DNA of 64,000 bases, taken from positions 512,001 through 576,000 of the forward strand of contig OZ242180.1 in NCBI GenBank assembly GCA_965205485.1. Direction: 5' to 3'. Position numbers: made by a program. This DNA is from Candidatus Latescibacterota bacterium (lineage in GTDB: Bacteria; Latescibacterota; UBA2968; GCA-2709665). This document shows positions 33,001 through 39,000 of this stretch, piece after piece (the first letter of the stretch is position 1; the number at the start of each line of letters is the position of its first letter).

Positions 33001-36000
33001 CGCTGAAAAGGCGGCCCCTTCACTTCAAATTCGGGAATCATCGTTTGCTCCCGTGACTGTGCAGGTCGTTCTCCGGGGCAGGTCCGCCGCAACCCGGATC
33101 TTGTGCGCATACTCGAACAGGCGCCGGAAACGCCGGACCGTCTTCTCCCGGCCCGATGCGTCGCGGACCTCCACGAAGAGGGGGCCGCGGGTGATCTGAT
33201 GCGTGGACCACGCCCACAGAAAACCGGCAAAGGAAATCCGGCTGCCGAAAAGCTCCTTGATCTCGTGATGATTGGAAAGCGCTCTCGACCCGGGGTCCGT
33301 ATCAACCTGGTGGATGTGATATCCCAGGATTCGCCGCCCGAGGCTGGCATACCAGTCGCCGAGGGGTTGCAGATTGTCCAGATCGCCCCCGTTGTTGCGC
33401 GCGTGGCCCACGTCCAACAACGCGCCTACCCTTGCATCGGGAATTTCTCTCATATCCGCTGCCACCGCGTCAATCCATCTCAGGTACTCGTCGATCCGGG
33501 TGGCGAATTCCCGCTCCGGCGAGTCCGAAGGCGTATCGGCGGGATTGTGGATGTTCTCAATCGCGATCCCCACGCCGGCGCCGGCCGCTTCTCCAAATAA
33601 ACTCGCGAAAGCTGCCACGAAATCCAGGAAACATCCGGTGGGTTCCGGTCGATCTTCCCGAACGCGCTCCATTGCGCCGGCGCTCGCCCTGGGGACGTGA
33701 ACCGTCAAGCTGTCCGCGCCCGCCGCCAACGCGCAATCCACGTGCGCCCGGACTATTTCCGCGCCCTCGACGCGTCCGGTACCTGAATTCCATTTGAGAT
33801 CGGGCAGATGATAGGACAGATACAAAGGACCCCGATTTCGAAGATCACGAAGCGATCCGGAAAGCGCGCGTCGTGAAAAATCGAGGTCCACCGGCCGGAT
33901 TTCGAGGCAGGGCAGGCCGGAAACCAGGGTCTCCCCCGCCGCCATTACCGGATCGCCCTGAATCGACCATCCGACGGGCAGCATTCCATTCGGCAGGTCC
34001 GCGGGCAGCAGCCGGATCGCGGGCGACCAGGGGATGAATATCTCCGTCCAGGCTCCCTTTCGAATGCTCTCGAAAAGGTTGATCCCCGGAAGGTCTCCGA
34101 TCGCCTTGTCCGGATCCAGCCCGCGGACCACGGCCTCGACGAAGCCGTTTTCCTGCCTGGTCCGTTGGACGTGGCTGTGCCCCGCGACGAGAAGCTCAAT
34201 GCCGTTCTCGGAGAGCCAGCGCGAAAGCCACGCCCGGGACTCTCCGTCCATCCTGTCCAGCGGATAGTGGGTGATGACCAGGCGCCGCGGTGCGCGGCTG
34301 CCCCGTAGGCTCCGGTTCAGCCAGGAGCGCTCTTCGTCAGGAAGACTTCCGGTCGACGTATCGGGCAGGAGAACGAGCAGGTCGCCGAACACGGCCGCAC
34401 GGCGTTCGGGCGACGCCAGGGTTTCGAACTCCGACATTGCGTCCCCGCCCCGCCGTTCCGCGTTTCCCGGGGTGAAGAGAACCGGGACTTCGACTTGGTC
34501 CAGCGCCTCCAGGCAGCGTGCGGCCGAGACGGCCGTTGCAAAAGTCGTGACGTCTCCGGCCACAGCCAGGAAATCCGGCCTCTCCCGGTTCACCCGGTCG
34601 ACAGCCCACTGAAGCGCCTGATAGGCAGCCGTATCCGGGTTGTCCGAAAGATGGAGGTCGGCAAGCAGAACAAATCGATGCGCACGCTGGGTCATATCGG
34701 GTATTTTCTCACACCGGTTATCCGATAAATTAGTTCACGTATTTGTGGCGGCCCGGATTTCCTCGTGCGAGATAGAGACGGAGCCCGTCCCAGTCGAACC
34801 CGGACGGAGAAACGAACGTGCGGTCGATTTCGGCATGGGTGGAGATGTATTTCAACGTTATGCCGCAACGCCGCCGGGACGACCTGTTGGGATTGGATCC
34901 GTGCAGAATCCAGGGATCGTGAACGGAATACTCACCCGCGCGCAACTGTACGTCTCTTGCGTTCGAAAGATCCAGGTTTTCCAGTGACATCGGCAGCGTC
35001 GTGCCGGAATCGAGATCCACCGTGTGCAACAGGACGGCCTGCTTCCGGTGGGTACCGGGAAGCACCCGCATGCAGCCGTTCTCTTCGTCGGAATCGTCCA
35101 CCGCCAGCCAGAGCGTGAACGTATCCATGGGCTCGATTGGAAAAAACGCGGCATCCTGATGCCATTCTACCGCCAGGCCGTCGTCCGGGCGTTTGCTGAT
35201 CACGTAGGAGGTGAACAGCGCAACGTCCGGCCCAACGATCTGCGCCGCCACGTCGATGAGACTGTCGCTCAGGAAGAGATCGCGAAGGTACTCGTTTTCG
35301 TAGTGGAGCGACGGCATGTTCTCGGGCCGCCGGTCCGGGGGAAGACTGTCGATAATGGAATCCAGTTCGCCCCGCAGCCTTGCAAGTTCGATGTCATCGA
35401 GAATCCGTCCGCCGGCGGCATAGCCCTCGTTGCGGTACTGTTTGAGTTGGGCGTTGGTGAGCGACATAGTGCTTCCCTTTTGCGTTTCCGTTTGCATCTG
35501 GTCTTGAATCGCGCCAATTCGCAGTCCTAGGCGCCCGGCTTCTTCGAGACCTGAAGGTACCTTGTAATCAACTTTTCGTAAATGCCGACGAAATCCGATC
35601 GACCGTTGTGCAGATTATAGAAATAACACATCGGGTTTGGATTGATTTCGATCACGTGGAATCCCGCTGACGACCGAATCACATCGATTGCAAAGAAACC
35701 CAGCTCGATCACGGCCGATACGCTCGCCGTCAACCGCGACAGCGCCTCGATCAGTTCAGGCGCATCCTCCGGCCTTGCAAATCCGGTCGGCCGGTGCAGC
35801 GGATTCAACTCGCTGCACGGCGCTTCGCAGACTTTCTCGTAGGCCAGCAGCAATTCATCCCGGGCGGCGACGATCCGATACTCCGGCCCGCTGACGTGCT
35901 CCTGAACCAGCACCAAGTTATCCAGGAATCCGCTGTTTTCGAACAACGTCCGCAGACGTCTCTTCAGGTCGCTCCGCTCTCTCTCCAGGAATACGCCCTG

Positions 36001-39000
36001 GGCAAGCGACCCCGTGTTCCGCTTGACAACGACGGGAAAGGTAAACCGGCGCTCAACGTCCTCAACCACCGCATCGACGGACGCATGGGTGCGGTAACGC
36101 GAGAACCGTTCGTCCGAAAATGGATTGAAGGCCACCATGGTTTCAGGAACCGGAAGCCCGGCCCGCGTAAACAACTCGTACTGGTATGCCTTGTCCTCCG
36201 CCAGGCGGGCCGCCACGTAGTCGTTGAACGGATGCCTGTTGCGCAGAAAGTAGACCGGCCCGCGTCCTGGCGGCCGGATACGGAACAGATTTCCGTCATC
36301 CGATGCCGCTTCAATCCGAAGGTCCAGGTTTGCGCAGGCTTTCGCGAGGCACGCGAGACTCTCCTTGTGCAGATCTTCCCCGAACCCGTCCCGATCGCAT
36401 GGCAGCCCCAATGCTTCCCGCGCCCTGCCAATGAGATGCAGCGATCCCATGATACAGACGGGATTGTCCTCCCGCAACCCTGCGCGTCCGAGCGCCTCCA
36501 CGACGTCCTGCGCGCAACAGGCGGAAAGCCCCGCGGGAAGGCTCTGCCGCAACACGTCGACAGCGAGGGCTTTCGGGTGGTCGGATCTCGTCAAGACCAC
36601 TTTTTTTGCCAGCGGCCGGATCGCCACGAGTATCCCCGCGGCGTCGTGACCCGCGCTCACCCCCACGACGAACGTCCACTGCTTCGACAACCTGACCAGA
36701 TCGCCCGCGAGGGCCGCGGCGCCGGAAGGGTTGTGTGCACCATCCAGCACGACCAGTGGCGATCGCCGGGCCACCTCGAACCTGCCCGGCAGATCGAGAG
36801 CGGTCAGGGCATCGCTGATCCGGGCATCCGTAAGGTCCTTTCCCATAAGATGGCGCCCGACCGCGATCGCCAGCCGGGCGTTCTTCCGGAATACGGACCC
36901 GCGGTCCGATACCTCCTGATGTGGGGATTGCGACCATGTGCGGCAACAATCGCCGTCCGTTTCGCCGCCGACAATGCGCAGATCCACGCTCCGTTCACGG
37001 CACTCGCGACGCAACAACGCGAGCACTTCAGGTTTCTGTGTGACAGGTGTGAAGAGCGGTCTGCCGGCACGGGCGATTTCGAGCTTGTCCAGCGCGATCG
37101 CCTCCACCGTATCGCCCAATACTTCGGTATGATCGAGATCGATCGACGTGAGGACGGACACACCGGCATCCCAGGCGTTGGTTGCGTCCAACCTGCCGCC
37201 CAGCCCAACCTCGAATACGCCGAATTCGACGCCGGCATGCGCGAATGCGGATGCCGCCAGCGCCGTCAACGCCTCGAACCGGGTGTAGGAACCGTATCCC
37301 TCCCGTTCGAATCCGCGCGTACGATCGTAAAGGTCTGAGACCCTCTGCGCCCATTCGTCCTTGTCCAGAATCCGGCCGTCGATCCGGATGCGTTCGCGGA
37401 TCGTGTGCAGGTGCGGTGACGAGTAGATACCGGTCCGGCGGCCGCATGCCTGCAGCAGGGCGGCCAGGACGCTCGCCACCGTACCCTTGCCGTTCGTACC
37501 GCCCACGATGACCGACGCAAAGTCCTTCTGTGGGTTTCCCATCCGGCGCAACAGAACCCGCATCCGGGGCAGATAGTCCTCCGGCGAACCCGCCGCCGTC
37601 CCGTCCCGTTCCCAATCCTGCAGCGTATTCAGATAGCGTTTGGCGCGAAAGTAATCCATCCAGACAGAGTCCCCGTCCGTAACGTCAGGTCCGATTTCGG
37701 CACCTTGCATGCGGGGTTGGCGCGAGGAGGCCGACCCGCCGGTAACATAAAAAAAACCCACCTGGAAACAAAAGGTGAGTTTTTCCGGTCCTGCATCCCC
37801 GTTCGGCGCCTCCCCGACGCATTGCAGGGAATCCACGGGGGACGTCTGACGACGTCGGCTGTTCCTTACGCGGCCTTGTTTACTCGGCCGAGCTTGATGC
37901 ACTTCGTGCAGACCTTGATCCTTCTGACCGTACCGTCCACCAGCACACGCACACGCCTGAGATTCGGATTGAACCTCCGCTTCTTTTTATTGTTGGCGTG
38001 ACTGACGTGGTTGCCGACCATCGGGCCCTTTCCGCAAATGTCACATCTGGCAGCCATCTCCAGTACCTCCGGAATTCCTTTATTGTATTCGCTCTGTCAT
38101 CTTGAAGTTGAAACCGATTCGCGCCCGCATCCCCCTGCGCCGTCCGAAAAACGACGAGACGCCCCGGTGGCGCGCTGCATCCAACACAACAAATATACCT
38201 GTCAGACGTCACTTGTCAAGAAAGAACACTGATCCGGATCCCTTCCAGCGACTCGGAATCCCTGCCGGGAGCACCGACCATTCCACGCGTGCGGGCGGAC
38301 ATTTCGCGGGTTGCGTCTTGCTCCCGGCGCCCGGAGTACCTGGAGGCCGGTCACCGTGGATGCCGATCGGATGTACGGAATCGAATGAACCAGAGGTCGA
38401 CTTCCGGAAGCGTTCCGCTGCTGAAAACCGCGCATGGCTCGTCGGGTATCAGGCTTCCGCTGGCAGTTGTGATTCCATAGAGGAAGAAAGTATTCCTCAG
38501 TCCGTAATCCTCGAAGCCCTTCAGGACCACCGCGGACCAGCTTCGGCCGTCATCTTCGCCGCGGTACAGCCGGAGCGCGTTTCCTGCGGTGCTGGGCATC
38601 AACATACGTCCTCGCTCGTGCGGACTTTCGAAGGTCGCGGCGATTCCCGCGCTTCCGGTGAATACGGCCCTCCACCGGCGCAGATCGGGATCCCGCCGAT
38701 AGACGATCAGCCGGTTCCTCCCGTCGCCGGCCCGGCGCGTGGCTGTGACAAGCAATGCGCCGTCGGCCGCCCGCAGGATCGACTGGGCGAACGCCAGGTT
38801 CTGCCTGATGGGGTTGGCGTCAGCGACCACCTCCGTGACGGCTGACGCCGGGTCTCCATAGGGCACATACAGATAGTTGATCCGGTTGTAATACGGACTG
38901 AGATATGCGTTGTTACTAACGACGAGGTGAAAACCCTCGCCGTCCGGGACGATCAATGGATACAGCCACGTCGTCCACGGTTCCTTCGACCGCTGCTCCC

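What a model noticed while it worked through the whole genome (the two positions that open the first line are those of the whole stretch)
35527..37659. FolC fused to a RimK-type alpha-glutamate ligase across the order
The only FolC (g00409, 710 aa) carries a C-terminal ATP-grasp domain closest to RimK-type alpha-L-glutamate ligases. One chain thus joins a gamma-glutamate ligase to a putative alpha-glutamate ligase, suggesting folates with an alpha-linked or capped tail.
Evidence so far: FolC motifs GTNGKGT, EVGLGGRLD, DGAHNP and ATP-grasp motifs VVKR, VQEHV, IEINPNP are intact. The C-terminal 290 aa hit only 5 PDB sequences, top four RimK/alpha-L-glutamate ligases (E 5e-5 to 5e-3, call 67). 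A full-length 1-702+ match is in 30 of 31 genomes searched, in both families of the order, one with a stop inside. 193 database proteins match the domain; nearly all of the best 120 are FolC fusions of about 700 aa.
(Added by a program. Inside this text positions count along the whole contig: contig position 512,001 is position 1 of the stretch shown here. "Call 12" and the like, gene names such as g00115 and contig names such as C1 are that model's own, and its searches are not shown. The text may have been shortened before it was handed on; [...] marks where a part breaks off. The agent that wrote the report below was given it as the finding of a first reader that could run no searches.)

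Follow-up and report, generated by a model that had tools for sequence, protein, structure and literature searches.

The report
FolC fused to orphan ATP-grasp ligase
In a large group of uncultured bacteria, the enzyme that attaches glutamate to the vitamin folate is permanently joined to a second, intact peptide-bond-forming enzyme of an unstudied family, which probably gives their folate an unusual tail, although its substrate has not been shown.

Summary
The fusion is real: one 710-aa frame (35527-37659, minus strand) joins FolC (TIGR01499, 297 bits, cut-off 163) to an intact ATP-grasp domain. It reaches beyond the order: a strong domain match in 123 of 129 genomes of three families in two orders, none in 39 other genomes of the phylum. 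The domain is not RimK (57-60 bits, cut-off 143). It belongs to an uncharacterised, mostly standalone family (127 of the 150 best representatives) whose fold is closest to ArgX/LysX/RimK. The fused FolC carries His in place of the DKD lysine in 140 of 140 sequences. One cyanobacterium independently pairs a standalone member with an extra FolC that has the same His; 97 other cyanobacterial loci show no FolC, FolP, FolK, FolA or ThyA neighbour. Best reading: the domain adds to the folate tail (about 0.67), most likely alpha-linked glutamate (0.40). The substrate is untested. This scan reported the same fusion before on other DNA (e1-6763934).

The parts
35527..37659 (-). folC-ATP-grasp fusion gene, 710 aa, ATG start
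   Evidence: same start MDY[F] in relatives
36409..37659 (-). FolC (Mur-ligase family) part, residues 1-417; P-loop, EVGLGGRLD, DH, K192, DGAHNP and GSL kept
37480..37500 (-). P-loop GTNGKGT, residues 54-60
36643..36651 (-). G337-H338-D339, in place of the usual DKD motif of FolC
   Evidence: alignments to 1o5z, 2vor, 1w78, 1fgs; His in 140 of 140 fused, Lys in 18 of 18 unfused
36364..36408 (-). short conserved junction, residues 418-432 (61% mean pairwise identity; E428 invariant)
35530..36390 (-). ATP-grasp domain, residues 424-710; K490, K546, E593, R595, D659, E671, N673 invariant
37740..37790 (-). hairpin with U-run between rpmB and the fusion; possible rpmB terminator
   Evidence: -15.3 kcal/mol, z -2.9; missed by the scan, whose loop limit is 8
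37866..38057 (-). rpmB (ribosomal protein L28; name from my reading of the sequence, no family scan), upstream and co-oriented
38192..38219 (-). sigma-70-like promoter (11 of 12 matches) ahead of rpmB
   Evidence: one such site is expected by chance in the region
39610..41058 (+). rimO-like radical SAM methylthiotransferase (UPF0004, Radical_SAM, TRAM; gene name inferred), divergent
41055..41540 (+). folA, dihydrofolate reductase
   Evidence: PF00186, E 8e-48
41700..42536 (+). thyA, thymidylate synthase; near the fusion in 6 of 8 other loci of the order

Best explanation
A two-ligase folate-tailoring enzyme. Step 1 (inferred from family membership and pathway context): the FolC part adds glutamate to dihydropteroate and probably a short gamma-linked tail. 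Step 2 (inferred): the tethered ATP-grasp domain activates a carboxylate of that tail as an acyl phosphate and adds further L-glutamate in alpha linkage, as an extension or a cap. The product would be a mixed gamma/alpha folylpolyglutamate. Shown: the fusion, its range, intact catalytic residues in both halves, purifying selection, the fold. Not shown: any substrate, the amino acid, the linkage.
For: Fusion kept in 123 of 129 genomes of three families (both halves in one frame in 20 of 20 loci checked). The ATP-grasp half is as conserved as FolC: 59% against 57% mean identity over 60 proteins; dN/dS 0.20 against 0.25 over 28 pairs from 8 of 15 genus loci. Seven catalytic positions are invariant in 60 of 60 fusions and six of them plus K490 in 105 of 105 standalone members. 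R595 and N673 align with RimK R189 and N262, which contact the last resolved glutamate (PMC10092738 section 3.3). Fold: ArgX Z 22.2, LysX/ArgX 21.9, RimK 19.7. The de novo pathway is present (folP in 152 of 168 phylum genomes; folK, folE in G000) and a CofE-type substitute was found in only 1 of 132 class genomes, so this chain must supply folate glutamylation. G000 shows no match to LysW, Mch, CofE or RimK over cut-off, so the known acceptors of this enzyme group were not found. Independent pairing: in cyanobacterial genome G399 a standalone member lies 4 bp ahead of a second, divergent folC, both at 29-30% GC against 36-48% for seven neighbours; the two ATP-grasp proteins sit on different sides of starred branches. 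Precedent: alpha-carboxyl-linked folylpolyglutamates in E. coli (titles only); CofF caps F420 with an alpha-glutamate (passage); MyfA/MyfB build the methylofuran tail (passages).
Against: No biochemical data. Identity to any characterised enzyme is about 20%, all family cut-offs are missed, and Ddl folds score nearly as well (Z 19.0). RimK's F210-R211-S212-N213 is replaced, the hinge glutamate (RimK E178) is kept in only 15 of 60 fusions, and RimK's other poly-glutamate contacts (S7, R8, S14, R64, S68) lie outside the alignable part. 97 of 98 cyanobacterial loci of the standalone family (80 with flanks up to 6 kb, 18 with 1.5 kb; many near-copies from Nostoc) gave no tblastn hit to FolC, FolP, FolK, FolA or ThyA. 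The G399 pair is one case: no other copy of its extra folC in 401 cyanobacterial genomes. The Lys-to-His change is not unique to partnered FolCs: 10 of 108 unfused outside relatives have it, and I could not see whether their genomes carry the ATP-grasp family. In the other order the upstream gene is moaA, not a folate gene (13 of 13 loci).
Confidence: 0.4

Rival explanations
1. Folate-directed, but other chemistry: the ATP-grasp domain adds a non-glutamate cap, makes a dipeptide that the His-type FolC then ligates, or takes over one FolC step (first glutamate or gamma-elongation) that the altered FolC does poorly.
For: The fused FolC has a long stem branch (1.05), scores 260-300 bits on TIGR01499 against 320-410 for most unfused FolCs of the phylum, and has fixed changes at DKD (His 140 of 140), at the GxHQxxN glutamine (Tyr/Phe/Trp against Gln 18 of 18) and at EKAG. 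The extra FolC of G399 also has His there and has lost the GGRLD arginine. Recalled, not found: the matching arginine of human FPGS (R377) is needed for glutamate binding.
Against: The residues used in a published model of the FPGS glutamate site (Mtb R412 and S473) appear kept: K/R363 in 138 of 140 and S406 in 138 of 140 (the mapping assumes a +2 numbering offset in 2VOR, inferred). His-type FolCs also exist unfused.
Confidence: 0.27
2. The domain has a substrate unrelated to folate (a protein C-terminus, a peptide or another cofactor) and became fused to an essential neighbour once, by loss of a stop codon.
For: The family is mostly standalone, patchy (18 of 301 cyanobacterial genomes) and in varied, non-folate contexts there. 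The fusion arose once (one starred clade for each half), so its 123 genomes count as one event. moaA and xdhC-like Mo-cofactor genes lie upstream in the other order.
Against: No case of a split gene among 20 loci checked, a conserved short junction, and the second pairing with a FolC in G399. The classic RimK acceptor fits badly: ribosomal protein S6 ends in Glu in 8 of 26 fusion-bearing genomes sampled and in Glu-Glu in none (the need for a terminal Glu is recalled), though these tails are glutamate-rich. LysW was not found in G000.
Confidence: 0.27
3. The domain is catalytically dead or only structural/regulatory (nucleotide or folate binding, oligomerisation).
For: The hinge glutamate and the RimK FRSN loop are changed.
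Against: All metal- and phosphate-binding positions are invariant and dN/dS is 0.20; the model is a complete ATP-grasp fold, pLDDT 95.7.
Confidence: 0.06

Closest known systems
FolC, dihydrofolate synthase / folylpolyglutamate synthase (TIGR01499; PDB 1o5z, 2vor, 1w78, 1fgs)
   Same: Residues 1-417 pass the family cut-off; P-loop, E150, D176-H177, K192, DGAHN and GS are kept.
   Different: Carries a 290-aa C-terminal enzyme domain; DKD lysine is His; GxHQxxN glutamine is aromatic; long stem branch.
ArgX / LysX (LysW-modifying ligases; PDB 3vpb, 5k2m, 3vpd)
   Same: Best fold match, Z 22.2 and 21.9, rmsd 3.0 over 241-246 residues; best profile match, E 1.3e-11.
   Different: 20% identity; TIGR02144 41-45 bits against cut-off 276; no LysW found in G000.
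RimK, ribosomal protein S6 alpha-L-glutamate ligase (PDB 5zct, 4iwx, 7qyr, 7qys)
   Same: Top sequence hits, top Foldseek hit; K100, K141, R189, H215, D248, E260, N262 have matching residues.
   Different: TIGR00768 57-60 bits against 143; FRSN loop replaced by DLNP; E178 not conserved; an extra aromatic helix (F511-H525) invariant in fusions; S6 lacks a conserved terminal Glu.
CofF and MptN (alpha-glutamate ligases for F420 and tetrahydromethanopterin); MyfA/MyfB (methylofuran tail)
   Same: The functional model: an ATP-grasp enzyme that adds glutamate to the tail of a cofactor (MptN name).
   Different: TIGR04443 15 bits against 300, NF040720 13 against 350; CofE and Mch not found in G000; those enzymes are not described as FolC fusions in what I read.
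Cyanophycin synthetase CphA1
   Same: One chain with an ATP-grasp and a Mur-type ligase (two-domain layout recalled; weak hits).
   Different: Opposite domain order; 38 bits against cut-off 850; the Mur-type half here is a FolC.

Membership tests
FolC | TIGR01499 score over curated cut-off | tested here: met
   296.6 against 162.65 bits
FolC | P-loop, EVGxGG, DH, carbamylated-lysine position, DGAHN, GS motifs | tested here: met
   near-invariant in 140 fused sequences
FolC | Lys/Arg of the C-terminal DKD motif (common feature, not universal) | tested here: not met
   His in 140 of 140 fused; Lys in 18 of 18 unfused phylum FolCs and 98 of 108 outside relatives
FolC | DHFS and/or FPGS activity | not testable with these tools
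   PMC1971073 (passage) found no motif that separates mono- from bifunctional enzymes
ATP-grasp superfamily | fold and catalytic K, K, D, E-x-N | tested here: met
   model pLDDT 95.7; Z 22.2; invariant residues
RimK family alpha-L-glutamate ligase | TIGR00768 / NF007764 score over cut-off | tested here: not met
   59.9 against 143.4; 17.3 against 331. Pfam PF08443, a broad domain model, is passed (35.3 against 21)
RimK family alpha-L-glutamate ligase | ADP-contact loop F210-R211-S212-N213 and E178 | tested here: not met
   D617-L618-N619-P620; Glu at 587 in 15 of 60
RimK family alpha-L-glutamate ligase | terminal-glutamate contacts R189, N262 | tested here: met
   R595, N673 invariant; these are common to many ATP-grasp enzymes
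RimK family alpha-L-glutamate ligase | poly-glutamate contacts S7, R8, S14, R64, S68 | tested here: inconclusive
   RimK residues 1-83 do not align by sequence
RimK family alpha-L-glutamate ligase | alpha-glutamyl ligation activity | not testable with these tools
   needs an enzyme assay
LysX/ArgX | score over cut-off and a LysW carrier gene | tested here: not met
   44.5 against 275.6; TIGR01206 no match in G000, 97% complete
CofF / MptN | score over cut-off and host cofactor pathway | tested here: not met
   15.1 against 300 and 12.9 against 350; CofE in 1 of 132 class genomes; Mch none in G000
Cyanophycin synthetase | TIGR02068 score and domain order | tested here: not met
   38.4 against 850; order reversed

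The most novel reading that the evidence does not exclude
A cyanophycin-synthetase-like two-site polymerase for folate: a re-tuned His-type FolC and the ATP-grasp domain work in turn to build a tail that is not plain poly-gamma-glutamate (mixed alpha/gamma, or holding a second amino acid), so a whole bacterial class runs one-carbon metabolism on an undescribed folate conjugate, and the widespread standalone family, as in the G399 two-gene cassette, spreads this chemistry to other phyla.
Probability: 0.25. Interest if true: 0.85.

Novelty: new variant of a known kind. Interest (0 to 1): 0.62.

Why it matters
FolC is among the most conserved vitamin enzymes. A second ligase fixed onto it across some 120 genomes points to folate chemistry that I found described nowhere in six literature searches (open-access library only). 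Alpha-linked folate tails were reported in E. coli in 1986 (titles only); whether their enzyme has since been named I could not establish. If this domain makes such tails, it gives a first substrate to an ATP-grasp family of several hundred clusters (613 at E up to 0.001, some of which belong to other families), and one gene expressed in an E. coli folC mutant tests it. If the substrate is unrelated, it remains a clean lineage marker and an annotation fix (one source labels it cyanophycin synthetase).

Tried and rejected
Assembly artefact or frameshift: rejected. Vestigial domain: rejected. 'Domain exists almost only as a FolC fusion': rejected. 'His for Lys is unique to the fusion': rejected. 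'The His-type unfused clade is sister to the fused FolC': seen in the FastTree (95) but not in the IQ-TREE; left open. The nearest named relative of that clade, a Chlorohelix FolC, has ordinary DKD and no family member within 6 kb, so it does not test the link. S6, LysW, F420 and methanopterin as acceptors: not supported. Full-length fold from the single sequence failed (pLDDT 36) and was not used. Context for the nearest standalone clade (P0026-P0035) could not be obtained: the metagenome scan returned one locus, itself a fusion; viral scans found nothing; plasmids and phages gave only weak, distant ATP-grasp hits. Cluster names could not be looked up. No RNA holder listed. One search used a wrong family accession and bears on nothing. 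The role of the DKD lysine was not found in print. No supplementary files were read; gene tables in supplements of genome papers could mention this fusion.
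Full report
Observation. The stretch 35527-37659 is one minus-strand frame of 710 codons. Residues 30-415 pass the FolC model TIGR01499 (296.6 bits, cut-off 162.65) and residues from about 424 on match ATP-grasp models (PF08443, E 1.1e-8). It is the only folC match in G000, a single-contig genome 97% complete. One contig of run X4 spans the junction without a difference; these runs come from one study and may include the source sample.

Range. A match over nearly the whole length is in 52 of 53 genomes of the order. With the ATP-grasp part as query over 168 phylum genomes, 127 matched at E up to 0.001. 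I dropped four rows: three weak hits in other classes (E 3e-6 or worse) and G147, whose gene is cut by a contig end. That leaves 123 strong matches among the 129 genomes of families f1, f2 and f4, which span two orders of one class. Family f3 of the same class (0 of 3) and 36 genomes of other classes have no strong match; two of the three f3 genomes and most others have an ordinary unfused FolC. Both halves lie in one frame in 20 of 20 loci fetched. Source labels of close relatives read Latescibacterota/Latescibacteria or Gemmatimonadetes. Each half forms one starred clade, so this is one fusion event, kept since.

The ATP-grasp domain. An exhaustive search gave 613 representatives at E up to 0.001; of the 150 listed, 127 are standalone proteins of 240-400 aa, about 25-36% identical to the query apart from one 45% hit, 5 carry FolC motifs and 18 are short. 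Standalone members include 351 loci found in named genomes, of which the 80 returned were almost all Nostoc and Planktothrix; the Atlas lists look-alike clusters in several phyla, as leads only. The model built on 111 sequences is confident (pLDDT 95.7) and closest to ArgX (Z 22.2), LysX/ArgX (21.9), RimK (19.7) and D-Ala-D-Ala ligase (19.0), at 14-20% identity; Foldseek ranks RimK and ArgX first. All specific family cut-offs are missed by a wide margin. K490, K546, E593, R595, D659, E671 and N673 are invariant in 60 of 60 fusions and 105 of 105 standalone members. R595 and N673 match RimK R189 and N262, which touch the last resolved glutamate in the Pseudomonas structure (PMC10092738, section 3.3 and passages). 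The FRSN loop is DLNP here, and the hinge glutamate is kept in 15 of 60 fusions. The domain is as conserved as FolC (59% against 57%) and has dN/dS 0.20 against 0.25 (28 pairs from the 8 of 15 genus loci that my pattern parsed). It is an active-looking ligase of an uncharacterised family: it may work like RimK or CofF, but it is not a member of either.

The FolC half. Core motifs are kept, but several positions are fixed at unusual residues in 140 fused sequences compared with 18 unfused FolCs of the phylum: His for the DKD lysine (140 of 140 against Lys 18 of 18), an aromatic for the GxHQxxN glutamine, and changes at EKAG. Its stem branch is long (1.05). Against over-reading this: His also occurs in 10 of 108 unfused outside relatives, and the two residues of a published glutamate-site model (Mtb R412, S473; PMC10861534, section 26) appear kept, if my inferred +2 offset for 2VOR is right. 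That the matching arginine of human FPGS governs glutamate binding is recalled; three searches did not find it.

Pathway context. folP is in 152 of 168 phylum genomes; folK and folE are in G000. A CofE-type substitute for FolC (described in PMC1971073, passage) is in 1 of 132 class genomes. So the fused chain most likely carries the essential glutamylation. G000 gave no match for LysW or Mch and no RimK over cut-off. S6 ends in Glu in 8 of 26 fusion-bearing genomes and in Glu-Glu in none (I left out three f3 genomes and G154 from the 30 loci). folA and thyA lie 3.4-4.9 kb away on the other strand in the window, thyA in 6 of 8 other loci of the order; in f4 the upstream gene is moaA in 13 of 13 loci.

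An independent pairing. Among 98 cyanobacterial loci of the standalone family, one gave a hit to the five folate proteins used as queries. In G399 the ATP-grasp gene ends 4 bp before a second folC (255 bits, over cut-off; the genome also has an ordinary one) (my notebook entry wrongly says 'overlaps'). Both genes have 29-30% GC against 36-48% for seven neighbours. This FolC is 26% identical to the window's, sits on a very long branch of unsure place, and also has His at the DKD position. Its ATP-grasp partner groups with the cyanobacterial proteins, away from the fused clade. A rough estimate, counting about seven distinct contexts and one or two folC genes among some 4,500, puts a chance neighbour near 0.5%; this is inference, not a test. 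It is one case: none other in 401 genomes, and 97 loci show no such neighbour.

Mechanism. Most likely the FolC half makes dihydrofolate and a short gamma tail and the tethered domain then acts on that tail. I put folate as the substrate at about 0.67: alpha-glutamate extension or cap 0.40, other folate chemistry 0.27. An unrelated substrate gets 0.27, a non-catalytic role 0.06. Precedents: alpha-carboxyl-linked folylpolyglutamates in E. coli (Ferone et al. 1986, two papers, titles seen in the reference lists of PMC1971073 and PMC11634982; texts not seen), CofF (one passage of PMC8498797) and MyfA/MyfB (passages of PMC8141765). PMC2877875 (passages) and PMC12371491 (no hits) added nothing on residues.

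Novelty. Searches (listings and abstract starts) showed no description of this fusion or family; the library lacks most subscription papers and I read no supplements. This scan noted the same fusion on other DNA (e1-6763934) and several other folate-linked ATP-grasp genes; those are unchecked notes, I could not test whether they are this family (searches found no look-alikes), and I do not count them as support. Verdict: a real, lineage-wide new architecture built from two known enzyme kinds, with a testable but unproven link to folate-tail chemistry.

Noticed in passing
L190:10278-12432 (G399): Low-GC two-gene pair in a cyanobacterium: standalone family member 4 bp ahead of an extra, divergent His-type folC that also lacks the GGRLD arginine; not found in 400 other cyanobacterial genomes.
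   Followed up: yes
L143, L147-L158 (family f4): moaA lies directly upstream of the fusion, same strand, in 13 of 13 loci, often with xdhC-like, AAA and vWA genes; a cystathionine gamma-lyase-like gene follows in several.
   Followed up: partly
P0344, P0347, P0354, P0357, P0361, P0381, P0385, P0386, P0304, P0316: Unfused FolCs with His at the DKD lysine; for P0344 the nearest named relatives are Chloroflexota. Whether their genomes hold the ATP-grasp family is unknown.
   Followed up: partly
window 33025-34695 (-): 556-aa fusion of a calcineurin-like metallophosphoesterase to a xylose-isomerase-like TIM barrel, behind a PhyH dioxygenase gene (34730-35497); both follow the fusion gene in most loci of the genus only.
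   Followed up: no
window 38351-39628 (-): 425-aa frame with a possible signal peptide and no Pfam match over cut-off, between rimO and rpmB.
   Followed up: no
P0065, P0120, P0131: Standalone family members with a related-looking N-terminal extension of about 80-90 aa.
   Followed up: no
P0026, P0027, P0031: Nearest standalone clade; three members share a His/Gln/Ser-rich tail that looks like overlap with a convergent gene on the other strand.
   Followed up: no
L141 (G166), L142 (G165): Two f4 genomes hold a second, ordinary Lys-type folC close to a contig start; real paralog or binning contamination.
   Followed up: partly
L228 (G154): The one class genome with a CofE-like gene (86% complete) gave no match for folC, folP or the fusion; the gene is not among folate genes.
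   Followed up: partly
residue 587 of the fusion (window 35899-35901): The adenine-binding hinge glutamate of ATP-grasp enzymes is variable in the fusions (Ala 19, Glu 15, Gln 15, Thr 7 of 60); the nucleotide preference may differ.
   Followed up: no
L172-L180, L182: In one cyanobacterial group the standalone gene sits among HTH/metallopeptidase and PIN-like toxin-antitoxin-looking genes (my reading, no family scan), as for an accessory gene.
   Followed up: no
window 37749: One-base length variant in an A/T run of the hairpin between rpmB and the fusion, in all three runs laid.
   Followed up: no
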